Part shown: positions 6,841 to 58,363 of the stretch, piece by piece
How positions within the stretch are numbered: the first letter of the stretch is position 1
Layout of the letters: every line of letters starts with the position of its first letter
Assembly (NCBI GenBank): GCA_963723005.1
Contig: CAVRPA010000008.1
Coordinates: 584,479 to 648,478 of the forward strand
Reading direction: 5' to 3'
DNA: 64,000 nucleotides
Source: an uncultured Acidobacteriota bacterium
GTDB taxonomy: Bacteria > Acidobacteriota > Vicinamibacteria > Vicinamibacterales > UBA2999
The notes under the pieces: generated by a model
Told to the model about the DNA's origin: nothing
The model's database searches: none
The model's input: only the letters and a program-made list of their open reading frames with translations
Translations under genes and position numbers: made by a program

Positions 6841-6875
6841 AGTTCAAGGTTCAAAGTTCAAGGTGCAGAGTTGGG
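6841..6875. repeat. five phased heptads AGTTCAA/GGTTCAA/AGTTCAA/GGTGCAG/AGTTGGG
   Basis: Direct reading of the spacer immediately after the GT2 stop codon (6832-6834). Confidence 0.6.
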
Positions 6876-6898
6876 CGGCCGCGGGGCCGCCCTTTTTT
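6873..6898 (+). terminator. rho-independent terminator after the GT2 gene
   Basis: GGGCGGCC-gcgg-GGCCGCCC perfect 8-bp stem followed by TTTTTT. Confidence 0.8.
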
Positions 6899-6997
6899 GT
6901 TGCCGTGCCGAGGCGGGATCCCCTCCCACGGCGTGCGCGTCTTTACCTCCAGTTCATCGGTATTCACGCGACCGGTTGGTCGCCCCCTGGAGGTGAA

Positions 6998-15109: not shown

Positions 15110-15854
15110 CGATTCGGTTGGGATCCTGACCTTCACCCGTCCTCACGCGCGCAACGCGCTCACGTGGGACATGTACGAAGCGCTCGATCGCGCCTGCGCC
15201 GAGGCCGGCACCAGCGCCGGTCTGCGTGCGCTCATCATACGCGGCTCGGGCGGCTCGTTCGCGGCCGGCACCGACATCGCCCAGTTCGCCGGCTTCGCCT
15301 CGGGTGCGGACGGCGTGGCCTACGAGCGACGGCTCGACCGGATGATCGACACGCTCGAGCGGGTGAGAGTGCCGACCATCGCCGAGGTGGACGGCGTGGC
15401 GGCGGGCGGCGGCTGCCTGATCGCGCTCGCCTGCGACATTCGCGTCTGTTCGCCGCGGGCGAAGTTCGGCATCCCGGTGGCGCGCACGCTCGGCAACTGC
15501 CTGTCGATGGCCAACACCGTCCGCCTGCTGGACCTCGTCGGCCCGGCGCGCTTGCGCGACCTGATGCTGACCGGCCGGCTGGTGGACGCTACGGAGGCGC
15601 TCGCGCTTGGCTTCGCGACGCGCATCGTCGATGGGGACGCGCTGTCCACGCACGTCAGCGCGCTGGCGGCCGAACTGGCGTCGCGGGCGCCCAGCACCGT
15701 CATCGCCACCAAGGCCATGCTGGCGCGGCTGCGCGAGTTCCGCACCCCGCCCGAGGGATCCGCCGACGACATCATCGCCGCGTGTTACGGCAGCGACGAC
15801 TTCCGCGAGGGCGTGGCCGCGTTCAACGAGGGCCGCCCGCCAAAGTGGCGGTAG
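15078..15854 (+). CDS. enoyl-CoA hydratase/isomerase (crotonase) family protein
   Basis: 'ILTFTRPHARNALT', 'GSGGSFAAGTDI' and 'AEVDGVAAGGGCLIALACD' oxyanion-hole motifs. Confidence 0.85.
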   Translation: MPSSNVAWDIIDSVGILTFTRPHARNALTWDMYEALDRACAEAGTSAGLRALIIRGSGGSFAAGTDIAQFAGFASGADGVAYERRLDRMIDTLERVRVPTIAEVDGVAAGGGCLIALACDIRVCSPRAKFGIPVARTLGNCLSMANTVRLLDLVGPARLRDLMLTGRLVDATEALALGFATRIVDGDALSTHVSALAAELASRAPSTVIATKAMLARLREFRTPPEGSADDIIAACYGSDDFREGVAAFNEGRPPKWR

Positions 15855-15906
15855 GCGGATAGCGTCGGGAGGCGGGAGTCGGGAGTCGAGCGCCCAAGCC
15901 TCAAGC
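15855..15906. repeat. seven phased heptads (GAGGCGG/GAGTCGG/GAGTCGA ... AGCCTCA) filling a convergent spacer
   Basis: Read directly between the crotonase stop (15852-15854) and the transporter stop (15907-15909). Confidence 0.55.
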
Positions 15907-17148
15907 CTAAAACATCACCCAGCAGATCAGCGCCCCGATAACCGTCATCGACAGGCCCCACGCCAGCAGCTGATTGAACAGCTTGCGCGGGTCGGCGCCG
16001 GCAGGCAGCGCCGCGATGCAGAGCGCGCCGATCGTCGAGAGCGGGGAAAGGTCCACGAGATGGCCGCCCACCATCATGGCGGAGGCGATGCCCAGCGGAT
16101 CGCCGCCGCCCAGCCGCTCCACCAGGCCGGGGATGGTCGGCAGGAACGCAGGCAGCACCACTCCCGACGTGCTGCTGTACACCGACACCACTCCGGTCAC
16201 CAGGGCGACGATGCCGGTGACCGTGGACGGCGTCGAGATGCGCGCGAGCAGATCGGAGAAGAGCGCCATTCCCTGGGTCTTCTCCAGCACGCCGATCAGC
16301 ACCGTCACGCCGCACACCATCAGCACGACGCCCCACGGCATCTTGCGGATCGCCTCCTTCTCGTCCGCGGCGCCGGCCAGCGACAGCACCGCGGCTCCGG
16401 TGAGCGCCGCCATGCCGACCTGCAGATCCCAGCCGATCACGCCGGCGACGAGCGCGACGAGAATGCCGAGCGTCAGGAAATGCACGGGCGAGAACGGCTC
16501 CAGCCGCACCGCCTGGGTCTCGGCGATTTCCTTCGAGCCTTTGCGGAACAGCGCCGCGCCGCCGAAGATCAGGTAGGCGACGAGCGTGACCGCGGTGTGC
16601 GCCATCAGGTTGTTGGTGTAGGTGGCGAACTCGACGCCGTGCAGGCCGATGCGGTCCATGATGCCGTTGACGATCACGCCGGTGGGCGCGAACGGCGACA
16701 GGGCGCCGGCCTGAGCGCCGTTGCCCACCATCAGCGCCATCAGGAACGGAGGAACCGCGGCTTGCGCGCCCACCGCCATCGCCATCGGCGCCAGGATCGC
16801 CGTGGTCGAGATGTTGCCGGGGCCGATGCTCGAGAGCAGCACCGCCACCCCGAAGAACATCACCGGGATCAGGCCGGCGTTGCCGCGACAGACGTGGACC
16901 GCGCGCGCCGCCAGTCGTTCGAGCGTGCCATTGGCGGAGGCCATGCCGAAGAGCAGCGTCACGCCGGCCAGCGTCAGGAACAACTGCACCGGGAAGGTGC
17001 CGATCACCGTGTTGAGCGGCATGCCGCCGAGGTACACGCCGACAATCCACGCCAGAGCGAGCGACACCACGCCCACGTTGACCTTCGTCAGCATGCTCAG
17101 CGTGACGGCGGCGGCGAGCGCGATGAGAGAGATCCACGCAAGACTCAT
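15907..17148 (-). CDS. MatC-like dicarboxylate carrier (ion-transporter superfamily permease)
   Basis: 413 aa polytopic protein. 'FPVQLFLTLAGVTLLFGMASANGTLERL...RGNAGLIPVMFF' resembles the MatC N-terminal domain as I recall it. Family call from memory only. Confidence 0.6.
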   Translation of the reverse strand: MSLAWISLIALAAAVTLSMLTKVNVGVVSLALAWIVGVYLGGMPLNTVIGTFPVQLFLTLAGVTLLFGMASANGTLERLAARAVHVCRGNAGLIPVMFFGVAVLLSSIGPGNISTTAILAPMAMAVGAQAAVPPFLMALMVGNGAQAGALSPFAPTGVIVNGIMDRIGLHGVEFATYTNNLMAHTAVTLVAYLIFGGAALFRKGSKEIAETQAVRLEPFSPVHFLTLGILVALVAGVIGWDLQVGMAALTGAAVLSLAGAADEKEAIRKMPWGVVLMVCGVTVLIGVLEKTQGMALFSDLLARISTPSTVTGIVALVTGVVSVYSSTSGVVLPAFLPTIPGLVERLGGGDPLGIASAMMVGGHLVDLSPLSTIGALCIAALPAGADPRKLFNQLLAWGLSMTVIGALICWVMF

Positions 17149-17151
17149 GCT

Positions 17152-20035
17152 CTAGGGCTCCTCGAGGAGAGATCGGATCAGGACGGCGGGATGCGTGGCC
17201 TGCACGCCGGTGAAGTGGGCCACCTGGTGGCGGCACGAAGTGCCCGCCGCGGCCAGCACCCCGCCGGCCGGCAGGGCGCGCGCCGCCGGCAGCAGCTTCC
17301 GCTCGCCGATGGCCTGCGACACGCCGTAGTGATCGCAGGAGTAGCCGAACGAGCCGGCCATGCCGCAGCAGCCGGCATCGAGATCGGTGACCGTGGCGCC
17401 CGGGATGCGCCGGAGCAGCGCCGCGGCCGAGGCGCCGAGGCCCATCGACCGCTGGTGACAGTGCACGTGCAGCAGCACGTCGGACGGCCCGCCGGCCAGA
17501 GGCAGCGTCGCTCGCCCCGCGCCGACTTCGCGCTCCAGGTACTCCTCGAACAGGACGGATTGCCTGGCGACGACCTGGGCCTTCTCGCGCAGCGATCCCG
17601 CCAGGAGATCGGGGGCGTCCTCCCTGATGGCCGAGAGGCAGCTGGGCTCCACGAACACGATCGCCTGACCTTGCGACGCGCGGGGAAACAACGCCGCGAC
17701 GTTGCGGGCCGCCAGGTCGCGGGCGTCACCTAACAGGCCCTGCGAGATGAGTGGCCGTCCGCAGCACACGTGCGGCGCCAGCGCCGCGCCGATCCCGGCG
17801 CGGTCGAGCACCTCGAACGCGGCGACGCCAATCTCCGGCTCGACGTGCGAGGTGAACGTATCGGCGAACAGCACGGCGCGAGGCTCCGGCGTGCGCGCCC
17901 GCACGCCATTCAGTTGCGCACGCAAGGTGCGCCGGGCCCACTGCGGCGGCAGCCGGCGTCGGTCGATGCCCAGCATCGATTCGCCCAACCGCCGTCCCAG
18001 AGTGCTCGCCGAGATCGCGTTCACGATCGGGGCGAAGGCGCTGCCCCAACCAGCCAGCTCGTTGATGCGGCCGAAAGCCTGCACTTTGAGCGGCATCGCA
18101 TGGCGTTGCCAGTAGCCGGCCAGGAACTCGCTCTTGTAGCGGCCCACGTCCACGCCCACCGGGCACTCGCTCTTGCAGGCGCGGCACTCGAGACACAGGT
18201 CGAGTACCGCGTGGACGCCCTGATCGTCGAGCCCCGCCTCCGCCAGCCGTCCGCTGGTGGCCAGCCGCAGCACGTTGGCCCGGCCGCGAGTGGAGTGCGC
18301 CTCCTCGCGGGTGACCATGAACGACGGGCACATCGTGCCGTCGCGCGTTTTGCGGCACGCGCCGACGCCGCTGCACATCTCGACCGCGCGGCCGAAGCCG
18401 CCGAACGACGCGTAGTCGAAGAAGGTGGCCGGGTTGGGCGTCTGGTAGCCGGCGCCGTAGCGCAGGTGCGAGGTGATCGGCGGCGTGTCAACGATGCGCC
18501 CGGGGTTGAAGAGCCCCTGAGGATCGAAGGTCCGCTTCACGGTGCGGAACGCCTGGTATAGCTCTGTCCCGAACATCTGCTCGTTGAAGGCGCCGCGGAC
18601 CAGGCCGTCGCCGTGCTCGCCGGAGAGCGAGCCGCCGTATTCGAGGACCAGCTCCGCGACTTCCCGGGCGATCGACTCGAACCGGGCCACACCGTCGGCG
18701 GTCTTCAGGTCGATGACTGGCCGCACGTGGAGACAGCCGACCGAAGCATGGGCGTAGATGCCGGCGGCGGTCTGGTGGCGCTCGAGGACGCGGAGAAACC
18801 GTGCGATGTAGGCGCGCAGGTGCTCGGGCGCGACGGCGGTGTCCTCGACGAACGACACCGCCTTGCCGTCGCCCTTCATCGCCATCGACAGCCCGAGCGC
18901 GGCCTCGCGCAGGCTCCACACCTTCGCCTGAGCGCCGGCGTCGGTCAACGCGCGCGTGCGGCACGCGACGCCGCTCGCTCGCAGGTCGTGCTCGAGCGCC
19001 TCGAGCCGCGCCGGCAGCTCGTCGGCCTGATCGGCATAGAACTCGATGCAGAGCAGCGCCGAGCCGTCGCGCTGCACGATGGTCCGGCGGAGCGCGTCGA
19101 GGCCGGCGTTGTCGCGCGTGTGCCGCAGGATGAAGTCGTCCATCACCTCCACGGCGGCGGGACCGTGCCGGAGCACCAGCGGCGTTGCGCCGAGCGCGTC
19201 CAGCAAGTCGTCGAACTCCGCCGTCAGCAGCGCCTTTGCCCTGGGCAGCGGCACCAGACCCACCGTGGCTTCGATCACGAAGCCCAGGGTGCCTTCCGAG
19301 CCGACGATGATGCGCGAGAGATCCACGGGTTGCGCAGGATCGACGAAGGCGTCGAGGTTGTAGCCGCCGACGCGTCGCAGGAGCTTGGGGAAGCGACGCT
19401 CGATCTCACTCGCGTGGGCCTGCGCCAGCGAGGGGATCGCCCGGTACGCATCACCCTCGATGCCCTGTGCGGCGCAGGCGATGGCCAGATCTGCCGCGCT
19501 CAACGGACGGAGATGCGCCACACGGGCATCGGCCAGCACCACCTGCAGATCGCGAACGTGATCGATGGTCTTACCGTAGACGACCGAGCGGGCGCCGCTC
19601 GAGTTGTTCGCGATCATCCCGCCGACGGTGGCGCGGCTGGACGACGACACGTCCGGCGCGAAGCGGAGGTGATGTGGCTTGAGCGCGGCGTTCAGGTCGT
19701 CGAGCACCACGCCGGGCTGCTACCCGAGCCGTGCGCGCCTCCGGATCGATCGCGAGGACGCGGTTGAGGTACTTCGAGGTGTCGAGCACCAGTCCGGCGC
19801 CAATCGCCTGGCCGGCCTGCGAGGTGCCGCCCCCGCGCGGCGTCAGCGAAACGCCGTGACGGGCCGCCATCGCCACCGTCCGCACGACGTCGTCTGGGGA
19901 GCGCGGGACGATGACCCCGCGCGGCTCGATCTGATAGACGCTGGCGTCGGTCGCATACAGCGCGCGTGACGCGGCATCGAAGCGGACCTCGCCGTCGAGC
20001 ACGGCGCGGAGGTCGCGTTGCAGGAGATCGCTCAC
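17152..20035 (-). pseudogene. fused FAD-binding (GlcD/D-lactate dehydrogenase-like) and Fe-S (GlcF-like, CCG domain) oxidase with one frame disruption near 19720
   Basis: N-terminal ORF 19571..20035 (FAD PCMH domain, 'PRGGGTSQAGQ') and ORF 17152..19710 are colinear. The latter carries 'LCLECRACKSECP' 4Fe-4S and C-terminal 'CCG' motifs. Removing one base from GGGTAGCAG gives ...ARVQPGVVLDDLNAAL. Confidence 0.8.
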
Positions 20036-20107
20036 GCGGCGAGCGACCCCGACTGCGCGCTCGCGACGAATCCGATTCGCGGCTGGTCCATGAGCGGACC
20101 GATTGTA

Positions 20108-20142
20108 TTCCGCCTTCGGCCTTTTGCCTTGCGCCTTTCGCC
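20108..20142. repeat. five phased heptads TTnnGCC (TTCCGCC TTCGGCC TTTTGCC TTGCGCC TTTCGCC)
   Basis: Read directly in the spacer between the selenoprotein gene and the FAD/Fe-S oxidase gene. The same unit type closes the array at 20534-20561. Confidence 0.6.
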
Positions 20143-20176
20143 GAGTGGTGTCGCGCCCCTGAATCTGTCGGATGAC

Positions 20177-20407
20177 TCAGGAGGCCAGCGCGGCTCGTAC
20201 CGCCTGCACGACCTGGTCTTCCGCGGGGAAACCGGTCTTGCTTTTCTGCGCGACCACGTGATCGCCCACGCGGACGGAGAACTCGCCGCGGGCGCCTTCG
20301 ACCACGGCCGGATCGACACCCGTCGCTGCCTTGATGAGCGCGGCCACACGGGTCGCGCGCGGAAGGTAGTTTCAGACGCGGCAGTAACGGATTTCGATCT
20401 GGGGCAT
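20177..20407 (-). CDS. SelW/Rdx-family selenoprotein (CxxU), 76 residues with in-frame UGA at 20374..20372
   Basis: Minus-strand translation: MPQIEIRYCRV-U-NYLPRATRVAALIKAATGVDPAVVEGARGEFSVRVGDHVVAQKSKTGFPAEDQVVQAVRAALAS. The total is 231 nt, a multiple of 3. GAGG lies 4 nt upstream of the ATG. The Rdx-family pattern IxYCxxU...RA...L......GxFxVxV....K.TGxFP is present. Confidence 0.75.
20338..20360 (-). promoter_or_regulatory. putative bacterial SECIS hairpin
   Basis: RNA GCGCGCGACC-CGUGU-GGCCGCGC begins 11-12 nt after the UGA. GC-rich stem with two bulges and a G/U-containing apical loop. Folded by eye only. Confidence 0.4.
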
Positions 20408-20428
20408 AGGGCCTCGGGGGGGAAGACT

Positions 20429-20565
20429 GGTCTTAGGTCTTAGGTCTTAGGGTCTTGGGGCTTGGGGCTTGGGGCTTGGGGCTCGGGGCTTGGGGCTTGA
20501 GGCTCGAGACTTGCGGCCGTCTGCCGACTGCCGTTTTGCCTTCTGCCTTTAGCCTTTTGCCTTCC
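20429..20565 (-). repeat. array of about 19 phased heptads filling the whole spacer upstream of the selenoprotein gene
   Basis: Plus strand reads (GGTCTTA)x3, GGGTCTT, (GGGGCTT)x5 plus one GGGGCTC, GAGGCTC, GAGACTT, then TnTGCCn units. On the gene (minus) strand the order is AAGGCAA-type > AAGCCCC > AAGACCC > TAAGACC > start codon. Confidence 0.85.
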
Positions 20566-21683
20566 TACTGACTTTTCCCCCTGGCCGCAATCGGCCACAC
20601 GGCTTCGACCACATTACCGCGAAGCGCGTGAATCTGATCGTACAGGTTGACCGTGGGATCGCAGTGCGGCGGCACGAACTCGAGGCGGTCGCCGACCCTG
20701 ACGTCGCGGTCGACGTTGGTGAGGTCGAGCCGGCCGTGTTCGTCGCCGGCCCACGAATAGACCGCGCCGGGCAGGTCCACGGCGACGGGGGTGAACGGCC
20801 GGTCGGTGGCGAACGCCTTGTACCCGGCGTCCACAATCGCCAGTCCCGGGCGGCGGGAGATGACGGTCGCCACCACGGTGAGCGCCTGCTCGAAGTCGCG
20901 GTAGTCGGTGTTGTCCGGCCCGCCGATCTGGCCGTACTCCATGTCCATGAAGATGAAGCTGCCCGGCTGGATCTCGGTGACGCCGTCGATCTCGGCGTCG
21001 ATCCGGTAGGTGCCCGTCGATCCTCCCGTGACCAGCGGACAGTCGATGCCGGCGCGCTCGATCATCCGCCGGGTCTCCACCGCCTGCTTCATGCTGCCGC
21101 TGGTGCGCGTCCGGCGCGCGTCGAACGGCGCCGTGTGCGCGGCCGCCCCGTCGTAGGACTGCAGGCCGACGAACCGCACGCGCGGCTGGCGGGTGATGAA
21201 GCGCGTCAGGTCCAGGGCCGGCGCTCCGGGCGAAATGCCGGTGCGGCCGAAGTGCAGGTCCACGGCCAGGTTCACCTCGACGCCGGGAAACCGGCCGGCG
21301 GCGTCGCTCAGCTCGCGCACGTTCTGCTCGGATTCGACGATGAAGATCGTGTCGGGCGCGATCCGGGCCAGCTCCAGGGCCCGCTCGATCTTCCCCGCGC
21401 CAACCACCGCCGTCGTGATCAGCAGTCCCCGGATGCCGTGCGCCGCGAACACCTCCGCCTCGCTCAGGCGGGCGGTGCAGACGCCCACGGCTCCCGCCGC
21501 GATCAGGCGCCGGGCGATTTCCGGGCACTTGTGCGTCTTGCCATGGGGCCGGAACGCCTTGCCCCGCTCTCGCAGGAACCCCGTCATACGGGTGACATTG
21601 GCTTCGAACCGGTCCAGGTCCAGCAGCAGGGCAGGGGTGGGCACATTCGTCGCGGAACCGCATGGGCGCGGGCATGCTAGCAC
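20565..21683 (-). CDS. DSD1-family PLP-dependent enzyme (alanine-racemase-fold D-serine/D-threo-3-hydroxyaspartate dehydratase or D-threonine aldolase-like)
   Basis: '[13 protein letters not shown]...[15 protein letters not shown]' carries the PLP-lysine context. C-terminal 'EHGRLDL...[19 protein letters not shown]' is present. Confidence 0.75.
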
Positions 21684-21700
21684 TACTTCCGGGGAGCGGC

Positions 21701-23539
<1,839 letters not shown>

Positions 23540-23658
23540 GAAATCAGGGATCAGGGATCAGGGATCAGGGATCAGGGATCAGGAGCTCAAGCCCCAAGCC
23601 CCAAGCCCCAAGCCCCAAGCCCCAAGCCCCAAGCCCCAAGCCCCAAGCCTCAAGACCC
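23540..23658 (+). repeat. 17 phased heptads filling the lepA-lepB spacer: GAAATCA, (GGGATCA)x5, GGAGCTC, (AAGCCCC)x8, AAGCCTC, AAGACCC
   Basis: Counted base by base from the lepA stop (23537-23539) to 2 nt before the lepB ATG (23661). Confidence 0.9.
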
Positions 23659-23660
23659 CT

Positions 23661-24281
23661 ATGGCCGAGACGACGTTTCGAAAATCCACCGCCCGGGAGT
23701 ACTTCGAGTCCCTCGTCGTCGCGGTGATCCTGGCGCTGTTCGTCCGCACTTTCGGGTTCCAGGCCTTCAAGATTCCAACCGGGTCGATGGAGCCGAACCT
23801 GCTCGTCGGCGATCACCTGCTCGTCAACAAGTTCATCTTCGGGCCGGCCACCTCCGGGCTCGAGCGCACGCTGCTGCCAATGCGGCAGGTGGAGCGCGGC
23901 GAAGTGCTGGTCTTCAAGTTTCCCGAGGAGCCCGAGCGCGACTTCATCAAGCGGGTGATCGGGTTGCCCGGCGAGACGCTGGAGTACAAGGACCAGCGCG
24001 TGTTCATCAACGGCATGCCGCTGATCGAGCCCTACGCGCACTATCAGCTGCCGGCAACGGGTGAAGGCAACAGCAGCGACCCTCGCGTCCGCTACGGTCC
24101 GGTGACCATCCCCGCCGACCACTACTTCATGATGGGCGACAATCGCGACGACTCGCAGGACAGCCGTTACTGGGGCTTCCTGCCGGCCAGCTACGTCAAG
24201 GGCCGCGCGCTCTTCATCTACTGGTCGTTCGGCGGGCCGCAGGGCACACGGTTCGATCGCCTGCTGCACCAGATCCACTAA
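23661..24281 (+). CDS. lepB: signal peptidase I
   Basis: 'FKIPTGSMEPNLLVGD' (Ser box), 'DFIKRVIGLPGE' (Lys box) and 'GDNRDDSQDSRYWG'. ATG at 23661, since the upstream part of ORF 23526..24281 is the repeat array. Confidence 0.9.
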   Translation: MAETTFRKSTAREYFESLVVAVILALFVRTFGFQAFKIPTGSMEPNLLVGDHLLVNKFIFGPATSGLERTLLPMRQVERGEVLVFKFPEEPERDFIKRVIGLPGETLEYKDQRVFINGMPLIEPYAHYQLPATGEGNSSDPRVRYGPVTIPADHYFMMGDNRDDSQDSRYWGFLPASYVKGRALFIYWSFGGPQGTRFDRLLHQIH

Positions 24282-25312
24282 CCTCGACTGCGCCCGATGA
24301 GCAGCAGTACCACCGAACGCCAGAGATCCGCTGAGCGCTGCGGTCACGTACGAGCGGGCGAGCCATGACGTGCGGCCGAGCGCCAGAGCGAAGGTGGCGA
24401 CCAACGGCACCCAGAGGCCATCCACGCCTTGATAGGTGCTCCCGATGATGCCGACCCGGACTACGGGCTGCTTCCTCGCACCGAACAATTCTGGCAGGTG
24501 GAGCCGAGCGAGCGCGCTCAGGCGAGTGGGGATACCGGCCGGGTCCCAGCAGAACCGCTGTTGGACCTCGGCGGCGTGAGTCGGCACACCAGCTTCGAGG
24601 TAGCTCGTGCCCGGTCCACGGGCTGAGGCGTACGGCACCAGCACCTGCACGCCCTGCCACACGCCGATCGCGACCAGCCCCGCGAGAGCCAGTCCGCGCA
24701 GGCGTTCGATCGAGAACAAGCGGTGCGTCCACGCCTCCACGGCGATCAGGGCCACCAGACCATAGAACGTGAACTCGCGGTTGAGCACCCCCACGCCCAG
24801 TACCAGCCGAGCCACAACGGCCGGTCGCGCAGGAACCAGATCAGCAGGACATAGATGAAGGGCTCGATGTTGCAGCCGTTGGCCTGCACCAGCCGGCTGG
24901 CAGCGGACGGCGGCGGCAGAATGAAGAACAGCGCGGCGAGCCCGGCGTGCCACGGGCGAAGTCCCACGAACCGCTCAAGGCCGGCCAGCAGCAGGATGAC
25001 CGCTGCCACGTTCAGGAGCAGAATCGGCAGCTTGAGAGTGGCTACCGACACGCCCCCGATCAGGAAGAAGGGCGCGACCAGCCATGACTCCACGCCGAGC
25101 AGATACTGCTGTCCGTAGAAGAACAACGGGAAGGCGCGGCCCTCGAGCAGATGTTTCGCCATGAGGCCGACGATCGCCTGGTCGGCGTCGAAATGAGACT
25201 GCTCCCAGCCGACGAAGACGATGGCGCGGAAGGCGATCAGCGTGGTTGCGAGTGCGATCACGGCGGCCCGCTCCCGCGCTCTCGGCGTCGTGGTCGCGGC
25301 GTCGGTGCCCAT
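24278..25312 (-). pseudogene. polytopic GT-C/ArnT-like membrane glycosyltransferase-like protein, frame-disrupted; 3' end uncertain
   Basis: ORF 24746..25312 ('DADQAIVGLMAKHLLEGRAFPLFFYGQQYLLGVESW') continues colinearly in the frame of ORF 23565..24953 after a G-run near 24780. A third frame gives a plausible C-terminus 'VVLLLIGRSRG*' ending at 24278-24280. Confidence 0.45.
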
Positions 25313-25319
25313 CGGGCGC

Positions 25320-25330
25320 TATACTATACT
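25320..25330. promoter_or_regulatory. TATACTATACT element, candidate shared -10 region for two divergent leaderless transcripts
   Basis: The intergenic region is only 26 nt (25313-25338). TATACT ends 8 nt before the plus-strand ATG at 25339. TATAGT/TAGTAT on the other strand lies 8-10 nt before the minus-strand ATG at 25312. Neither side has a Shine-Dalgarno sequence. Confidence 0.45.
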
Positions 25331-25338
25331 GGCGCTCG

Positions 25339-26964
25339 ATGGCGCCGGCGCGTTCGAGGGCAGCAAGCGTCGGGGTCGGCGTCGGTGTCGCGGCGCTGGC
25401 CATTTACGTCGTGAGCCTCGCGCCCGAGTTGGCGCCCCGAGGCGGCCTCGAAAGCGACAGGCCGTTCCAGGCCACCGATCCCGTGTGGCTCCAGCAGGTG
25501 CTGTCGTTTGCCGGCAGTGCGGAGAGCTGGTGGCCCTCGGGTGCCCTGGCCAAGGCCTGGACCTCGTTGCCGGGCTCATCGAACTTCAACTTCGCATCTG
25601 CGGCACTGGCGGCGAGTGCGGCGGCGCTGCTTACGCGGCTGATCACCGGCATGAGCTCGACACTGATGGCCGTAGCGGCCGGCCTCGGCTTTGCGCTGTC
25701 ACCTTCCGTGTGGGCTGTTGCCGTGGCCGCCGAGGGCAGCGTCGGCGCCTTGCTCATTGCCGTCGCGGTCCTTACCTCGCTGCTGTGTCTGAACGAATGG
25801 CAGCGCTCCGGGCGCGCTGCCGCACTGCTGGGTGTCGGTGGCGCCCTGATGGTGGCGGCTTGCGAAGACGTCACTGCGGCCATCGTCGCTGCACCGATGC
25901 TGATGTACGCCGCGCCCCACACGAGGCCGTTCCGACGATGGTGGATGCTGGCGATGGTGGGCGGCGTTGGTTTCGCGGCGGTGTACCAGTGGTGGCAGCT
26001 GCGCGCCTTGCTCGGTGCGACCGCCGTTGATGGAGGGGTGCTGCCAGACGTCGGCCGCGCCTGGGTCGAGGTCTGGCGATGGGGTTTCCCGTCCGAGCAA
26101 TCCGTGGCGGCCATCGGCGGCGCTCGCGCGCGAGCTCTCACGTCGGCAGTGACCGAGAACCTGGGACTCTTTGGCATCTTGGTGGCCGCACTTGGGCTGC
26201 GTTGGCACCTATCGACCCTGGCGATCCTCGCGCTCTGCGCGGGCGCGGCACTCGGGCCGCTGGGAGCACCTTGGGACCCGACGACCCGCAGCGTGCTGCT
26301 GCTGACACCGCTCTGGTACCTCATTGCCATGGGGATCGCGCGCGTGGCGTCGTGGACCAGCGCGGGAGGGCGTCCGGTGGCCCTCGCGCTGTGCGGCTTG
26401 TTGCCGGCCCTCCAGATCCTGCGGCTGGGCGCCGAGCCCCACACTCTGGTCGATCGGCCGGCCGGCGGGATGCTCGGAGCGTTTGCCTTGGCGCCGACTG
26501 GGCCCGCGGACCTCATTGCGGACCGCGCTCGCGTTGCCCGTCTGCTGATCCTCAGCAATCGCCGGCGTCCCACGAGCGCTCGATGGGAGCTGGCGCCGCA
26601 GGACCCCGTGCGTCTCGCGCAGGCGATCGAACTGGGCCGGACGATCGTGGCGACGGGGCCGGCGGCCGACCGGCTATCGCTCTCGGGACTGACCGGCGAG
26701 ACGAGGTCAGTCAGAGGGCGGACCCTGAGCGAGGTGCTGGCGTCAACGGATTCGCGGGCGCTGGTTGGCGTCGTGGCGACTCCTGGTGCTTTCGCAGAAC
26801 AGCCTGCGGCAGCCAATCGTCTGGCGGAGCTCGTTGGAGAACGGCGGGCGGCGACGCCGCTGCCCGAAGGCGCATTCGGGTTGCTCGCACGTCGATCCGG
26901 GTTCACGTCGCAGCTGGTCACAGCCGCGTTCGCGTCGAGTCGCCGGCGCGGACCTGGCTTCTGA
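25339..26964 (+). CDS. hypothetical polytopic membrane protein with soluble C-terminal region
   Basis: Many Ala/Leu/Gly-rich TM segments over the first roughly 370 residues. No motif I can name. ATG at 25339 within ORF 25246..26964. Confidence 0.5.
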   Translation: MAPARSRAASVGVGVGVAALAIYVVSLAPELAPRGGLESDRPFQATDPVWLQQVLSFAGSAESWWPSGALAKAWTSLPGSSNFNFASAALAASAAALLTRLITGMSSTLMAVAAGLGFALSPSVWAVAVAAEGSVGALLIAVAVLTSLLCLNEWQRSGRAAALLGVGGALMVAACEDVTAAIVAAPMLMYAAPHTRPFRRWWMLAMVGGVGFAAVYQWWQLRALLGATAVDGGVLPDVGRAWVEVWRWGFPSEQSVAAIGGARARALTSAVTENLGLFGILVAALGLRWHLSTLAILALCAGAALGPLGAPWDPTTRSVLLLTPLWYLIAMGIARVASWTSAGGRPVALALCGLLPALQILRLGAEPHTLVDRPAGGMLGAFALAPTGPADLIADRARVARLLILSNRRRPTSARWELAPQDPVRLAQAIELGRTIVATGPAADRLSLSGLTGETRSVRGRTLSEVLASTDSRALVGVVATPGAFAEQPAAANRLAELVGERRAATPLPEGAFGLLARRSGFTSQLVTAAFASSRRRGPGF

Positions 26965-26977
26965 CGTCCCGCCGTCG

Positions 26978-28042
26978 TTGGATCCGGGTGCGGGGGTCCG
27001 GCTGGTCGCCGATCCTTCCGGTGCGAGGGTTGAACTCGGCGCCCGGGAACTGGCGCAGGTGGATGGCGGGGCCATCGTGGTCACATGGTCGCCGGTGAGC
27101 GGCGACGTCTCTTGGTCAGTCCTCGACCGCCGCGCCGGCCTGACCGCATCGTGGGAGCACGCTGGTTGGCGCTTTTCACGCCTCGGCCCGCAGCGGGCGT
27201 GTGTGACGGCCACCAGCGGCCAGTGGGCTGACATCACGAACAGCACGAGGGCGGCTCGGATCGGCGTCCAGTTGGCGCGTGGCCAGCGGCTCCGGCTCTA
27301 CCTGGCCCGGGATCGCGGCCTCTTCGTTCGCGCCGCAGCCTTTCCGGATCGTCATCCTCCTGAAGTCGCAGTCTTGCGCTGGGACCGCGAGAATCCTGAA
27401 CAGGAACGCTCGGCAGTCGCGGCACTTGACGCTGCCGGGGCGCGACTGCGCACGGCTGCGGCGACCGCGCGCTTCATCTGGCAGGTGACAATCACGGCAT
27501 CTCCGTCCGAGGACGGCCTGTTCGCGGTCGGTCTGGGCGGTACCCCCGATTGGGCGCAAGCACGGGTCGAGTCCCCTGCCGGCGAGTCCGCCGTCATTTG
27601 CCCTGGGGTCGCCGGTGCGCAGCTGTTCGCCCGCGACGACATTCGAGAGGACGTGATCTCGCTGACCGACGGCGACAGCTTCGGTGCCGGGTGGCTGGAG
27701 ATGGAGCGTGAAGGCGGCCAGCGTTGGCGGCAGACGCGCAACGGCGAAAGCGATCTGTTCGTCCGGCTGGATGTGGCTCGAACCCTGACGATGACGGTCA
27801 CAACCAGGCCTGGCGCGCCTCCGAATACGGCGGGCCGCATCGGCTTGCGCGTGAACGGAGCACTGCTCGACTTTCGCGACCTGCAAGGCGGCGGCAACGA
27901 CTACACATGGACGGTGCCCGAGAGTCAGTGGCGGGCGGGAACGAATCGTCTGGTCCTCGTCACGACGCCGATCGACTCCTCGCAGGGTAATGAAGTCGTG
28001 TCGCCGGTTCTCCACGTCACCAGCCTGCGTTTTCGACGCTGA
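26978..28042 (+). CDS. hypothetical protein; either a separate TTG-initiated gene or a frame-shifted continuation of the preceding membrane protein
   Basis: ORF 26765..28042 overlaps the end of 25339..26964 in another frame. Coding-looking sequence starts about 'LDPGAGVRLVADPSGARVELG'. No recognisable domain. Confidence 0.4.
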   Translation: MDPGAGVRLVADPSGARVELGARELAQVDGGAIVVTWSPVSGDVSWSVLDRRAGLTASWEHAGWRFSRLGPQRACVTATSGQWADITNSTRAARIGVQLARGQRLRLYLARDRGLFVRAAAFPDRHPPEVAVLRWDRENPEQERSAVAALDAAGARLRTAAATARFIWQVTITASPSEDGLFAVGLGGTPDWAQARVESPAGESAVICPGVAGAQLFARDDIREDVISLTDGDSFGAGWLEMEREGGQRWRQTRNGESDLFVRLDVARTLTMTVTTRPGAPPNTAGRIGLRVNGALLDFRDLQGGGNDYTWTVPESQWRAGTNRLVLVTTPIDSSQGNEVVSPVLHVTSLRFRR

Positions 28043-28138
28043 CCTCGACGGTCGCCGCCGGCCCGTCGTACCGATCAAGCGCCAGTGTGACCGCGCCCAC
28101 CGCCAGCGAGGCCGTCTGGACACCGTTAGCGTCGATTC

Positions 28139-29323
28139 TTACGGAGCGATCCAGTCCGTGAGCGCGACCAGGCGCCCGCCCTGCATCTCGCAGATGAAAC
28201 CGGCCCGCTGGGCGTGGTGATTCGTCGCCGAGAAGCTCACGTTCGGCAACACTCCGCCGGCGTCCCAGTTGACGATACCCTCCATCGCGTCGATGAATCG
28301 CTCGCGCGTCAGCGTCTTCCCCGCGCGCTCGACGCCTTCCACGACCAGCCGGCCGAAGGTGTAGCCGTAAAGCGTATAGCGATCGACCTGACGGCCTGGG
28401 TAGGTGCGCGCGAGGGCAGACCGGTAACGCTCGACGCCAGGCGCCTGGCTCCGTTCCGGATCCGGGTAATGGCAGAAACCAAGCGTCCCATCGGCGCTGC
28501 CGCCGGGCACCGTCAGCGAGGCCTCGTCGGTGAGCGGGCCGGCCGACACCATCCGTCCGCGCCAGCCGGCGCGCGCTCGCGCCGCCATCAGGGCCTGCGC
28601 CTGTTCGGGATAGATGGCCATCACGATCGCATCGGGGCGGGTCGCCACCAGCGCCGCGAACTCCGAAGACAGGTCCGTGGGCTTGCGCGCGGTGATCGGC
28701 ACCGCGCCGGCGACCTCGTACCCGAACTCGCTCGCATGCGCGGTCAGGCGATCACGGAAGGTCAGCCCGTAGGCGTTGGGATCGTGCGCGATCGCAAGCC
28801 GCGTGAGCTTGCGGTCCTTCGACAGGTAGCGGAACATCACCGCCGCCTCGCCCTCGAAGCGCGGGAACGACGTGAAGAGGTAACGCTCGCCCTCGGAGGA
28901 CACCAGCGCGGTGTGCGGGAACATCACCGGCACCCGCTGAGACCGCGCGTAGGCCGCGATGTCGCCGATCGCCGGACCGCTGAAGTTGACCAGGGCAAAG
29001 ACGTGGTCGTCGTCGATCATCTGGCGCGCCACGGCCAGCACGTCGGCGGGCTCGCCGCTCTTCCGCCGTCGATCGGCCCACACGAATCGCCGGCCATGAA
29101 CGCCGCCGCGTGCGTTCGCCTCCTCGAATGCCAGCCGGAACCCCTGGTTCTCGCCGTCCAGCGACAGCGAGCCGACACCTGCTTCGACGCCGATTGCGAT
29201 TGTGGTATCGGTGATTCCCTCGGGCGACGGCTGTTCGGCGGCCGTTCCCGCGAGCGCGGTGACGCCGAGAAGGAGCGCCCAGAGCGTGCGGCGCGAGAGC
29301 AGCGGGCTGTGCATGACGACCAC
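28139..29323 (-). CDS. ABC transporter substrate-binding protein (type I periplasmic binding fold, LivK/branched-chain amino acid-like)
   Basis: Signal peptide 'LLSRRTLWALLLGVTALAGTAAEQ'. Overall pattern 'IAIGVEAG...FEEANARGGVHGRRF...DDHVFALVNFSGP'. Confidence 0.75.
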   Translation of the reverse strand: MVVMHSPLLSRRTLWALLLGVTALAGTAAEQPSPEGITDTTIAIGVEAGVGSLSLDGENQGFRLAFEEANARGGVHGRRFVWADRRRKSGEPADVLAVARQMIDDDHVFALVNFSGPAIGDIAAYARSQRVPVMFPHTALVSSEGERYLFTSFPRFEGEAAVMFRYLSKDRKLTRLAIAHDPNAYGLTFRDRLTAHASEFGYEVAGAVPITARKPTDLSSEFAALVATRPDAIVMAIYPEQAQALMAARARAGWRGRMVSAGPLTDEASLTVPGGSADGTLGFCHYPDPERSQAPGVERYRSALARTYPGRQVDRYTLYGYTFGRLVVEGVERAGKTLTRERFIDAMEGIVNWDAGGVLPNVSFSATNHHAQRAGFICEMQGGRLVALTDWIAP

Positions 29324-58300: not shown

Positions 58301-58363
58301 AGGCCCCAAGCCCCAAGCCCCAAGCCCCAAGCCTCAAGACTCAAGACCCAAGACCCAAGACCT
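58301..58363 (+). repeat. nine phased heptads AGGCCCC, (AAGCCCC)x3, AAGCCTC, AAGACTC, (AAGACCC)x2, AAGACCT
   Basis: Counted from 6 nt after the stop (58293-58295) to 2 nt before the ATG at 58366. Confidence 0.85.

What the first reader, a model, noticed from the sequence alone, without database searches (positions are those of the whole stretch)
20429..20565. Second AAGCCCC-family array (about 19 heptads) on the opposite strand with the same polarity relative to its downstream gene
- The whole 137-nt spacer between the DSD1-family gene stop and the selenoprotein gene is one continuous 7-nt register.
- Read on the gene (minus) strand it runs (AAGGCAA/AAGGCTA/AAGGCAG)-type units, then GAGCCTC, then AAGCCCC (5 perfect copies plus 1 variant), then AAGACCC, then (TAAGACC)x3. 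About 21 nt carrying GAGG follow, then the ATG.
- The internal order AAGCCCC > AAGACC-type > start codon matches 23540-23660 and 58301-58363, although this locus is inverted in the genome.
- A conserved order and orientation relative to transcription argue for a functional or mechanistic polarity rather than random slippage.
Basis: seen in the sequence. Interest (0 to 1): 0.65.

Follow-up and report, generated by a model that had tools for sequence, protein, structure and literature searches.

The report
Variable 7-base repeat tract between genes
The spacer in front of a small selenoprotein gene is a fast-changing tract of 7-base repeats (AAGCCCC), a new example of a repeat class already described in other bacteria whose function is still unknown; it is not a fixed-orientation signal for the gene downstream.

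Summary
The tract is real. There are 19 head-to-tail units at 20429-20563 on the minus strand, lying between a DSD1-type gene and a SelW/Rdx selenoprotein gene, and this is far beyond chance.

It behaves as a hypervariable heptanucleotide microsatellite:
- A 98.6%-identical contig differs by exactly 35 nt here and by 14 nt in the lepA-lepB tract.
- Closer relatives keep AAGCCCC arrays at the same three spacers. Relatives with about 80% protein identity have 20-43 nt spacers with normal ribosome-binding sites, or a different 8-mer array.

(AAGCCCC)≥3 occurs in many genomes, about 40% of the sampled loci being Acidobacteriota or Vicinamibacterales. It is found in both orientations relative to flanking genes (20 sense, 18 antisense), including in the closest labelled relative.

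A polarity does exist, but a different one. The C-rich strand's 3' end abuts the neighbouring gene whichever way that gene points (47 vs 15, p=6e-5). Arrays are C-rich in sense before starts and G-rich in sense just after stops. Rehm et al. 2015 published the same rule for GGGAATC and GGGGAYT repeats. Here it also held for heptads that cannot form G-quadruplexes.

Verdict: a new member of a known kind, with function unproven.

The parts
20565..21683 (-). Upstream gene: DSD1-type D-serine dehydratase-like / alanine racemase-fold protein. Its stop codon TAG is at 20567-20565.
   Evidence: Pfam Ala_racemase_N (6e-22) and D-ser_dehydrat (1e-18). The GTG start at 21683 is not verified.
20513..20563 (-). 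Stop-proximal sub-array with G>C, purine-rich units: AAGGCAA AAGGCTA AAGGCAG AAGGCAA AACGGCAG TCGGCAG ACGGCCGC. Seven units, two of them 8 nt.
   Evidence: In the first 61 nt of the 20429-20565 stretch, which also holds the next unit AAGTCTC, G is 22 and C is 14.
20499..20512 (-). Transitional units AAGTCTC GAGCCTC. In the near-identical strain L119 they read AAGCCCC AAGCCCC.
20457..20498 (-). AAGCCCC core: 5 perfect copies plus GAGCCCC. On the + strand (template strand for the selenoprotein gene) it reads (GGGGCTT)n, with six G4 runs.
   Evidence: A G-quadruplex is predicted for the + strand only.
20429..20456 (-). Start-proximal sub-array AAGACCC (TAAGACC)x3. The three TAAGACC copies are absent from L119.
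20408..20428 (-). Non-repeat 21 nt, AGTCTTCCCCCCCGAGGCCCT, with GAGG 4 nt before the ATG. This is the only Shine-Dalgarno-like element in the spacer.
   Evidence: It is conserved with small changes in L119.
20177..20407 (-). SelW-like (Rdx family) selenoprotein gene of 76 aa. The in-frame UGA at 20374-20372 lies in the C-R-V-U motif, and the UGA lies within a stable predicted hairpin.
   Evidence: Pfam Rdx 3e-11. Orthologues keep C-x-x-UGA. Fold z=-2.87.
20111..20142 (-). Small heptad tract AAAGGCG CAAGGCA AAAGGCC GAAGGCG, between the selenoprotein stop and the ATG (20091) of the FAD-linked oxidase gene.
   Evidence: It is identical in L119.
23543..23583 (+). (ATCAGGG)x6, G-rich in sense, starting 3 nt after the lepA stop. 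It forms the first half of the lepA-lepB compound tract.
   Evidence: L119 has about 4 copies.
23589..23658 (+). (AAGCCCC)x8 AAGCCTC AAGACCC, C-rich in sense, ending 2 nt before the lepB ATG (23661). No Shine-Dalgarno motif.
   Evidence: lepB is Peptidase_S26. An orthologous array is present in L007, L120 and L119.
58301..58363 (+). AGGCCCC (AAGCCCC)x3 AAGCCTC AAGACTC AAGACCC AAGACCC AAGACCT, filling the 70-nt spacer before the ATG (58366) of a GMC-type oxidoreductase gene. No Shine-Dalgarno motif.
   Evidence: An orthologous array is present in L063.
15861..15909 (+). Convergent-spacer version: CGTCGGG AGGCGGG AGTCGGG AGTCGAG, then CGCCC, then AAGCCTC AAGCCTA. The final CTA is the stop codon of the minus-strand gene 15907..17151.

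Best explanation
The tract is a compound heptanucleotide simple-sequence repeat, that is, a microsatellite or VNTR. Its unit is AAGCCCC on the sense strand and GGGGCTT on the template strand. It is one of many such tracts that fill short intergenic spacers in this Vicinamibacterales-type acidobacterium.

**How it arises (shown).**
- It changes by slipped-strand mispairing or unequal exchange in 7-nt steps, with local homogenisation of units.
- It is a derived, clade-specific expansion of a spacer that is only 20-43 nt long, or absent, in relatives.
- It is not required for expression of the selenoprotein gene as such.

**What it does in the cell (inferred).**
- It is transcribed with the downstream gene.
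- There it forms a C-rich, G-poor leader with essentially no secondary structure.
- The complementary strand is G-quadruplex-capable.

**Orientation (shown).**
- Orientation is not tied to transcription.
- It follows the placement rule known for G-rich heptamer repeats of Xanthomonas and Nostoc. The array sits against the gene on the 5' side of its G-rich strand.
- So it is C-rich in sense when it abuts a start, and G-rich in sense when it abuts a stop.

**Most likely cause of the rule (inferred, about 50% sure).** Selection filters where each orientation of a slippage-generated array is tolerated on the transcript. An unstructured C-rich RNA is harmless or mildly helpful at a ribosome-binding region. 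G-rich RNA, which is G4-forming or Shine-Dalgarno-like, is not tolerated there and persists only just after stop codons.
For: **Real and non-random.**

**Slippage.**
- L119 is 98.6% identical over 10.7 kb.
- It differs by exactly 35 nt (5 units) in this tract and 14 nt (2 units) in the lepA-lepB tract, and also by unit conversions. The neighbouring small tract and the coding flanks are near-identical.

**Derived and dispensable.**
- The DSD1-to-SelW spacer is 43 nt in L121 (with AGGAG) and 20 nt in L124 (with GAGG).
- In L123 it is 165 nt of 8-mers (GATTGGGC).
- In L120 it is 83 nt with (AAGCCCC)x4 AAGACCT.
- lepA and lepB overlap (ATGGCTGA) in L125 but are separated by 52-121 nt of heptads in the window, L119, L120 and L007.

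**Lineage-wide habit.**
- Period 7 is the commonest period that is not a multiple of 3 away from the seed arrays: 20 arrays per 332 kb of acidobacterial loci.
About 45 of them (about 40%) are Acidobacteriota or Vicinamibacterales.

**Orientation.** 20 sense vs 18 antisense, with antisense genes verified by Pfam.

**Placement rule.**
- 47 vs 15 overall (p=6e-5). By class: ++ 14:5, -- 16:2, +- 13:4.
- The result is robust to the gene-call threshold.
- It is independent of the seed family: 23 vs 5 for other skewed heptads.
- Periodic sequence directly after stops is G>C in sense 39 vs 7, whereas non-periodic sequence after stops shows no skew (138 vs 154).

**Transcript properties.**
- Sense-strand folds are no better than shuffles: z = -0.49, +1.12, +0.69.
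- With G-quadruplexes allowed, the antisense strand folds at -92, -82 and -44 kcal/mol, against -37, -30 and -4 for the sense strand.

**Published precedent.** Rehm et al. 2015, PMC4692102.
Against: - The selection-filter idea does not explain why the rule is as strong in convergent spacers, where both neighbours are stop codons and no ribosome-binding site is involved. Counts there are 13:4 for the seed arrays and 10:1 for other heptads.
- Arrays persist at the same three spacers across 77-87% nucleotide identity. This could mean they are maintained for a function.
- lepB and the GMC oxidoreductase gene have no Shine-Dalgarno motif within 15 nt of verified starts. The array may therefore have taken over a role in initiation.
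- Gene calls in the fetched loci come from a crude GC-frame score, checked by Pfam for only 10 ORFs.
- Either the window or L119 looks like a noisy long-read assembly: 35 gap openings in 10.7 kb and split genes. Part of the strain difference could be assembly error, although differences in whole multiples of 7 argue otherwise.
- Transcription of the tract was not tested.
Confidence: 0.6

Rival explanations
1. The AAGCCCC > AAGACC tract is a dedicated, orientation-dependent leader element for the downstream gene. It would act as a Shine-Dalgarno-independent ribosome standby or S1-binding site, or as the binding site of an RNA-binding regulator. This is what MacGregor (2015) proposed for TAACTGA heptamer repeats.
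For: - All three window arrays end 2-21 nt before verified start codons, in sense.
- Two of the three genes lack any Shine-Dalgarno motif.
- The sense RNA is structure-free.
- Orthologous arrays are kept in L120, L007 and L063.
- Among start-proximal arrays, the C-rich strand is in sense 18 times against 6.
- There is a precedent for start-proximal heptamers without ribosome-binding sites (PMC4679880).
Against: - The same unit is found as often in antisense (18 vs 20), where it abuts stop codons.
- Orthologous SelW genes in L121 and L124 work with short ordinary spacers.
- Copy number and unit sequence differ between 98.6%-identical strains.
- The downstream genes share no functional theme.
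Confidence: 0.15
2. The tract is a G-quadruplex or i-motif DNA element. (GGGGCTT)n on the template strand just upstream of the gene, or on the coding strand just after a stop, folds into G4 and modulates transcription. This is the idea discussed for GGGAATC and GGGGAYT repeats.
For: - There are six G4 runs with 3-nt loops, and a G4 is predicted on the + strand.
- The placement rule is identical to that of repeats shown to form G4 in vitro (PMC4692102).
Against: - The same placement rule holds for heptads that cannot form G4, such as TTTTCAC, TCAATCA and ACTACTG (23 vs 5).
- There is no peak at four units: 77 arrays have 3 perfect copies, 27 have 4 and 6 have 5.
- Rehm et al. themselves found no regulatory role.
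- Folding in vivo has not been tested.
Confidence: 0.1
3. The tract is a Rho-loading insulator. The C-rich, G-poor, unstructured strand is a rut-like site. It is placed so that any RNA polymerase travelling towards the adjacent gene transcribes it just before entering. That would stop antisense read-through into convergent genes and make entry into a downstream gene depend on ribosome loading.
For: - In 76 nt the composition is C 36 and G 12, with no structure.
- This is the only idea here that predicts one orientation-independent rule, namely that the C-strand 3' end faces a gene whether that boundary is a start or a stop. That is what is seen.
- It also fits the rarity of these arrays between divergent genes: 8 of 63 and 0 of 29.
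Against: - This is inference only. No Rho data exist for this lineage.
- Several C>G heptads are poor in YC dimers.
- It would impose polarity inside apparent operons such as lepA-lepB.
- It does not explain why G-rich heptads sit directly on stop codons.
Confidence: 0.1
4. The tract is a phase-variation or 'rheostat' repeat. Changes in copy number would tune expression of the downstream gene, as with the ATCTTTC heptamer in the Haemophilus influenzae hmw 5'-UTR.
For: - Copy number is hypervariable between near-identical strains.
- The tract lies in a 5'-UTR or intercistronic position.
- There is a precedent for a transcribed heptamer repeat with an RNA-level mechanism (PMC12721329).
Against: - The neighbouring genes are housekeeping or metabolic (lepB, SelW, oxidoreductase), not surface or contingency genes.
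- No promoter-like site lies in or near the tract.
- There is no pairing partner that would give a significant hairpin (z=-0.49).
- Arrays also sit after stop codons of convergent genes.
Confidence: 0.07
5. The tract is a chance pattern or an assembly artefact.
For: The window and L119 both have split genes, which suggests indel errors.
Against: - Chance expects 0.01 matches and 18 are seen.
- The same arrays sit at orthologous sites in independent assemblies from ENA, JGI and NCBI.
- They also occur in isolate genomes.
Confidence: 0.01

Closest known systems
G-rich heptameric intergenic simple sequence repeats GGGAATC (Xanthomonas) and GGGGA(C/T)T (Nostoc), Rehm et al. 2015, PLoS One, PMC4692102
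   Same: - The unit is 7 nt with a G3-4 run on one strand.
- Arrays are tandem and their copy number varies between close relatives at the same locus.
- They are intergenic, mostly between co-directional ORFs and rarely between divergent ORFs.
- They lie against the ORF on the 5' side of the G strand. In gene terms, the G-rich strand is non-coding when the array lies upstream of a start and coding when it lies just after a stop.
- The neighbouring genes are housekeeping or of mixed function.
- Function is unknown.
   Different: - The unit is GGGGCTT/AAGCCCC, which no paper in the searched library mentions as a bacterial repeat.
- The host is Acidobacteriota (Vicinamibacterales), with other high-GC phyla also represented.
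- There is no visible preference for four units.
- Tracts here are compound. Several unit families lie side by side and fill 87-96% of a spacer.
- The placement rule here also covers units that cannot form G4.
Cyanobacterial STRR (short tandemly repeated repetitive) heptanucleotides of Calothrix/Anabaena. Mazel et al. 1990 is cited from memory and appears as ref. 39 in PMC4692102.
   Same: - Heptanucleotide tandem arrays in intergenic regions.
- STRR1, CCCCA(A/G)T as I recall it, differs from CCCCAAG by one base.
- Function has remained unknown for decades.
   Different: - The lineage differs, since STRR are found in heterocystous cyanobacteria.
- The unit differs.
TAACTGA direct repeats upstream of start codons in marine Beggiatoaceae and some cyanobacteria/Bacteroidetes, MacGregor 2015, PMC4679880
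   Same: - Heptamer direct repeats lie within a few nt of start codons, in the forward orientation.
- The spacers lack a canonical ribosome-binding site.
- The downstream genes share no common function.
   Different: - The unit is different and AT-rich.
- Arrays there are mostly 2-6 copies and mostly forward-oriented, whereas AAGCCCC arrays occur equally in both orientations.
- Related heptamers are rare there, whereas here many unit families coexist.
Phase-variable heptamer ATCTTTC in the hmw 5'-UTR of Haemophilus influenzae, PMC12721329
   Same: A transcribed, pyrimidine-rich heptamer repeat lies upstream of a gene, and its copy number is hypervariable.
   Different: - There the repeat pairs with a G-rich arm to form a long hairpin cut by RNase III, and it controls an adhesin.
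- Here no significant hairpin is predicted, and the genes are housekeeping.

Membership tests
G-rich heptameric intergenic SSRs (Rehm et al. 2015 class) | Tandem head-to-tail 7-nt unit carrying a run of 3 or more G on one strand | tested here: met
   The + strand reads (GGGGCTT)n. TRF finds period 7 with 7.9 copies and 91% matches.
G-rich heptameric intergenic SSRs (Rehm et al. 2015 class) | Located in non-coding DNA and excluded from ORFs | tested here: met
   All window arrays lie between a stop and a start. Only 4 of 124 sampled arrays lie inside a single ORF. No genome-wide denominator is available.
G-rich heptameric intergenic SSRs (Rehm et al. 2015 class) | Preferentially between aligned ORFs and under-represented between divergent ORFs | tested here: met
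   Seed arrays: tandem 38, convergent 17, divergent 8. Other heptads: tandem 18, convergent 11, divergent 0.
G-rich heptameric intergenic SSRs (Rehm et al. 2015 class) | Lies nearer the ORF on the 5' side of the G strand, whatever that ORF's orientation | tested here: met
   47 vs 15, p=6e-5, with medians of 16 nt against 52 nt. The result is robust to the gene-call threshold.
G-rich heptameric intergenic SSRs (Rehm et al. 2015 class) | Copy number and sequence vary between close relatives at the same intergenic site | tested here: met
   Window vs L119: -35 nt and -14 nt. L120, L007 and L063 carry orthologous arrays with other copy numbers.
G-rich heptameric intergenic SSRs (Rehm et al. 2015 class) | Clear preference for four units | tested here: inconclusive
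   Perfect-core copy numbers are 3:77, 4:27, 5:6 and 6 or more:14, so there is no peak at 4. However, the scan required at least 3 perfect copies and imperfect units were not counted.
G-rich heptameric intergenic SSRs (Rehm et al. 2015 class) | Forms a G-quadruplex in vitro and is transcribed | not testable with these tools
   There is only a ViennaRNA G-quadruplex prediction for the G strand. No spectroscopy or RNA-seq is available.
Cyanobacterial STRR heptanucleotides | Unit is one of the STRR sequences (STRR1 CCCCA(A/G)T from memory) in a heterocystous cyanobacterium | tested here: not met
   The unit is CCCCAAG. The nearest labelled relative is Vicinamibacterales (85% nt identity to L007).
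Contingency-locus (phase-variation) SSR | Repeat lies inside the 5' part of an ORF or between promoter elements, so that unit changes switch expression | tested here: not met
   The tract lies between a stop and a start. No promoter-like site was found in 19900-24400. A 7-nt change cannot shift a reading frame here.
Contingency-locus (phase-variation) SSR | Associated with surface, virulence or restriction-modification genes | tested here: not met
   The neighbours are an Rdx selenoprotein, signal peptidase I and a GMC oxidoreductase.
TAACTGA-type start-proximal heptamer repeats (MacGregor 2015) | Forward-oriented repeats within a few nt of the start codon, replacing the ribosome-binding site | tested here: inconclusive
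   This holds for the three window arrays, with 2 of the 3 genes lacking a Shine-Dalgarno motif. Across genomes the unit family is as often in the reverse orientation, next to stops. The unit sequence also differs.
Rho utilisation (rut) site | At least about 60-80 nt of C-rich, G-poor, unstructured untranslated RNA | tested here: met
   C is 36 and G is 12 in 76 nt. Fold z-scores are -0.49 to +1.12.
Rho utilisation (rut) site | Rho-dependent termination downstream | not testable with these tools
   This needs Term-seq or bicyclomycin treatment in a cultured relative.

The most novel reading that the evidence does not exclude
The heptad tracts are not passive filler. They would be products of one orientation-independent, gene-boundary-directed process or function.
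- On either strand, G-rich (purine-rich) heptads are laid down directly on stop codons, and C-rich heptads face the next gene.
- This holds even for units that cannot form G-quadruplexes.
- It can create 50-160 nt spacers between genes that were formerly overlapping or translationally coupled, as with lepA/lepB.

Two candidate causes are Rho-loading insulation of gene boundaries and R-loop-driven polar repeat growth in untranslated RNA just after stops. Either would be a general mechanism of spacer genesis or transcription insulation that has not been described.
Probability: 0.12. Interest if true: 0.65.

Novelty: new member of a known kind. Interest (0 to 1): 0.36.

Why it matters
- Heptanucleotide repeats are the over-represented long microsatellite class in many large, GC-rich bacterial genomes. 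Their role has been open since the cyanobacterial STRR reports.
- This locus adds a new unit (GGGGCTT/AAGCCCC) and a new, poorly studied soil phylum to that class.
- The published placement rule holds there and is not limited to G-quadruplex-capable units. That argues against G4 as the cause.
- The locus documents such tracts arising between genes that overlap in relatives and leaving start codons without Shine-Dalgarno motifs.
- On the practical side, these tracts are hypervariable strain markers and a source of contig breaks in metagenome assemblies.
- As a single finding, though, it is an example of a known phenomenon, without a demonstrated function.

Tried and rejected
- **Known RNA elements.** Rfam at gathering thresholds and ARAGORN found nothing in the window, so the tract is not a known RNA element.
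- **Promoters and terminators.** The scan of 19900-24400 found no promoter-like site, and terminator-like sites occur at chance level.
- **Hairpin between the two halves of the tract.** I tested whether the G-rich 5' part pairs with the C-rich 3' part of the spacer. The fold is no better than shuffles in this spacer or in the lepA-lepB spacer.
- **Universal 'G-rich heptads then C-rich heptads' architecture.** Left flanks of the AAGCCCC cores are not consistently G-rich (15 positive vs 22 negative skew). Inverted heptads of at least 9 nt occur in only 9 of 60. The arrangement is common but not general.
- **Arrays simply amplify local base composition after stops.** Rejected. Non-periodic sequence after stops has no G/C skew (138 vs 154), while periodic sequence is G>C 39 vs 7.
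- **Replication direction sets orientation.** Unlikely, because arrays of opposite orientation lie 3 kb apart in the window.
- **Exact-protein look-up of the DSD1-type protein.** It found nothing. The LepB look-up worked.
- **Gene callers.** My first two whole-locus gene callers missed many genes. I replaced them with a local flank score, which I spot-checked with Pfam.
- **3.9-kb strain-specific segment (24282-28140).** Pfam on its ORFs gave nothing.
Full report
**1. What is there**

On the minus strand, the stop codon of a DSD1-type gene (20565-21683) is followed by 19 head-to-tail units. Pfam assigns that gene Ala_racemase_N and D-ser_dehydrat. The units are:
- seven purine-rich AAGGCAA-type units, two of which have 8 nt;
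- AAGTCTC and GAGCCTC;
- six AAGCCCC-type units, five of them perfect;
- AAGACCC and three TAAGACC.

Then come 21 non-repeat bases containing GAGG, and the ATG (20407) of a 76-codon Rdx/SelW-type gene with UGA in its C-R-V-U motif.

Lag-7 identity is 0.78, against 0.30 +/- 0.04 in shuffles. TRF finds no repeat of any other period scoring above 60, apart from a period-21 (3 x 7) reading of this same array.

The description is therefore confirmed, with three corrections. The spacer is 157 nt, not 137. The register has two 1-nt insertions and one shift. Coordinate 20565 belongs to the stop codon.

**2. It is a hypervariable microsatellite**

An ENA metagenome contig (L119) encodes the identical LepB and is 98.6% identical to the window over 10.7 kb. 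The tracts compare as follows.
- *This tract:* L119 is exactly 35 nt (5 units) shorter. It has six perfect AAGCCCC where the window has AAGTCTC GAGCCTC ... GAGCCCC variants, and it lacks (TAAGACC)x3.
- *The lepA-lepB tract:* L119 is 14 nt (2 units) shorter.
- *Coding flanks and the small tract at 20111-20142:* near-identical.

Caveat: both assemblies carry split genes, so some indel noise is possible. Differences in whole multiples of 7, together with unit conversions, are not what homopolymer errors look like.

**3. Evolution at orthologous sites**

A metagenome scan with the DSD1-type protein and the genome scan provide relatives.

| Locus | Similarity to window | Spacer state |
|---|---|---|
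| L120 | 87.6% nt | (AAGCCCC)x4 AAGACCT before the SelW ATG |
| L120 | 87.6% nt | short GGTCAGG.../(CCCCAAG)x3 tract before lepB |
| L007 | 85% nt | lepA-lepB: CGGGAGT-type heptads, then (AAGCCCC)x3 AAGACCCCC ATG |
| L063 | 77% nt | GMC spacer: (AAGCCCC)x3 AAGGCCC AAGACC ATG |
| L121 | 80% protein | DSD1-SelW: 43 nt with AGGAG, no array |
| L124 | 81% protein | DSD1-SelW: 20 nt with GAGG, no array |
| L123 | 80% protein | DSD1-SelW: 165 nt of GATTGGGC 8-mers |
| L125 | 79% nt | lepA stop overlaps the lepB start (ATGGCTGA) |

L007 and L063 come from the same Vicinamibacterales genome (CA_2019_TPBF_176). More distant relatives than those listed lack the SelW gene altogether.

So the tracts are derived. 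They are shared by a sub-clade, long-lived at a site, and constantly remodelled. They are not needed for SelW expression as such.

**4.

About 45 loci (about 40%) are Acidobacteriota or Vicinamibacterales. The rest include Phycisphaerae, Gemmatimonadales, Lysobacteraceae and 'Ca. Ribeiella'.

I called the coding strand on each flank from a position-specific GC likelihood. Results:
- Co-directional gene pairs carry AAGCCCC in sense 20 times and in antisense 18 times (p=0.87).
- In Acidobacteriota alone the split is 12 vs 6 (p=0.24).
- No score threshold makes the difference significant.
- Eight of ten right-flank ORFs taken from the antisense class (all ten lie on the strand opposite to AAGCCCC) have Pfam domains that run to the last profile position beside the array. 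Two are from the genome closest to the window.
- AAGAC-type units lie on the 3' side only in 13 arrays and on the 5' side only in 6. They are as frequent when the right-hand gene is on the other strand (9/48) as on the same strand (9/40).

**5. The polarity that does exist**

Measured symmetrically from the perfect core, the array is nearer the gene on the 3' side of the C-rich strand in 47 cases against 15 (p=6e-5). The median distances are 16 nt and 52 nt. This holds across gene arrangements:

| Flanking genes | Nearer the right-hand gene | Nearer the left-hand gene |
|---|---|---|
| ++ | 14 | 5 |
| -- | 16 | 2 |
| +- (convergent, both boundaries are stops) | 13 | 4 |

In gene terms:
- start-proximal arrays are C-rich in sense (18 vs 6);
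- stop-proximal arrays are G-rich in sense (29 vs 9).

Rehm et al. 2015 reported the same rule for GGGAATC in Xanthomonas and GGGGA(C/T)T in Nostoc. They also reported rarity between divergent ORFs, variation between close relatives, and no identified function (PMC4692102).

The window itself obeys the rule in 8 of 9 heptad tracts. Examples:
- (ATCAGGG)x6 starts 3 nt after the lepA stop and is followed by (AAGCCCC)x8 up to the lepB ATG.
- The convergent spacer at 15855-15909 has G-rich heptads after one stop, and its AAGCCTC AAGCCTA units supply the other gene's stop codon.

**6. Two extensions beyond the published rule**

- The rule holds for 28 other skewed period-7 arrays lying at least 300 nt from the seeds (23 vs 5, p=9e-4; a 29th is tied, and none of the 29 lies between divergent genes). 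Many of these units cannot form G-quadruplexes.
- It is not a background composition effect. Sequence after stops has no G/C skew when it is non-periodic (138 vs 154). When it is 7-periodic, it is G>C in sense 39 times against 7.

**7. Properties that bear on mechanism**

- The sense RNA of the three spacers folds no better than shuffles (z = -0.49, +1.12, +0.69). The third spacer region (101 nt folded) has an MFE of only -7.8 kcal/mol.
- With G-quadruplexes allowed, the opposite strand is predicted at -92, -82 and -44 kcal/mol, against -37, -30 and -4 for the sense strand.
- lepB and the GMC gene have starts verified by conserved N-termini but no Shine-Dalgarno motif within 15 nt. SelW keeps GAGG.
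- No promoter-like site lies in the region, and terminator-like sites there are at chance level.

**8. Interpretation**

*Shown:*
- a compound heptanucleotide microsatellite, made and remodelled in 7-nt steps;
- derived in this clade;
- a member of the class of strand-skewed heptamer repeats, with its characteristic placement.

*Inferred:*
- It is transcribed as an unstructured C-rich leader.
- The placement rule most likely reflects where each orientation is tolerated on transcripts. G-rich RNA would not be tolerated at ribosome-binding regions.

That filter does not explain the equally strong rule in convergent spacers. A Rho-loading or insulator role for the C-rich strand, or polar growth driven by R-loops, therefore remain open alternatives. 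A dedicated, orientation-fixed leader element is less likely but not excluded for start-proximal arrays.

**9. Novelty**

No paper in the searched library mentions GGGGCTT or AAGCCCC as a bacterial repeat, or heptamer repeats in Acidobacteria. The kind of element and its polarity are published. I therefore rate this a new member of a known kind, of moderate interest. The generalised, unexplained placement rule is the part worth following up.

Noticed in passing
window 17152-20091 (-) and 58366-59960 (+): Two genes are split by frameshifts. In the FAD-linked oxidase, FAD_binding_4 profile positions 1-70 fall in ORF 19571-20035 and positions 74-138 in ORF 17152-19710. The GMC oxidoreductase is split between 58366-59274 and 58551-59960. 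L119 also has the oxidase split, but differently. These are either assembly indel errors or pseudogenes.
   Followed up: partly
window 20177-20407 (-): This is an Rdx/SelW-type selenoprotein gene with in-frame UGA (20374-20372) in the C-R-V-U motif. The UGA lies within a stable predicted hairpin (z=-2.87) that could be a bacterial SECIS. Orthologues L120, L121, L123 and L124 keep C-x-x-UGA. More distant relatives lack the gene, and there the DSD1-type gene is followed directly by the FAD oxidase.
   Followed up: partly
window 23543-23583 (+): (AUCAGGG)x6, directly after the lepA stop, presents CAGGGAU every 7 nt. From memory, this matches the CsrA-binding core CARGGAU and recalls the GGA-repeat sponge RNAs CsrB and RsmZ. 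The same GGGATCA unit precedes AAGCCCC arrays in L105 and L118.
   Followed up: no
window 23540-23660; L125 about 640-670 (reverse strand): In L125 the lepA stop and lepB start overlap (ATGGCTGA). In the window, L119, L120 and L007 the two genes are separated by 52-121 nt made almost wholly of heptads. Repeat expansion appears to have uncoupled two formerly overlapping genes.
   Followed up: partly
window 15852-15909 (+): This convergent spacer has a mirrored layout. The stop TAG is followed by CGTCGGG AGGCGGG AGTCGGG AGTCGAG, then CGCCC, then AAGCCTC AAGCCTA. The final CTA is the stop codon of the minus-strand gene. Each gene is therefore followed by heptads that are G-rich in its own sense.
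   Followed up: partly
window 6842-6900 (+): (GTTCAAG)x3 sits between the stop at 6834 and a textbook intrinsic terminator, GGGCGGCCGCGGGGCCGCCC followed by TTTTTT. Heptads can therefore lie between a stop and a terminator hairpin.
   Followed up: no
window 24282-28140: About 3.9 kb is present in the window but absent from the 98.6%-identical contig L119. Its long ORFs have no Pfam match and weak coding signal. It may be a strain-specific insertion.
   Followed up: partly
L010 (reverse strand about 4013-4030), L006, L032, L063: In several loci the G-rich strand of the array is read as the last codons of the adjacent gene. For example, the proline dehydrogenase ORF in L010 ends ...SWGLGVLGS*, and single G>A variants (TGG to TGA or TAG) supply the stop. 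Distances of -1 to -59 nt show arrays overlapping gene 3' ends.
   Followed up: no
L123 2819-2985: The orthologous DSD1-SelW spacer in this relative is filled by 8-nt units (GATTGGGC-type), G-rich in sense right up to the start codon. This is a different repeat family and period at the same site, and an exception to 'C-rich before starts'.
   Followed up: no
L005, L036, L056, L062, L077, L091, L093 (contig ends): Many AAGCCCC arrays sit at the very ends of short-read contigs. This suggests these tracts regularly break metagenome assemblies, so they are under-counted in MAGs.
   Followed up: no
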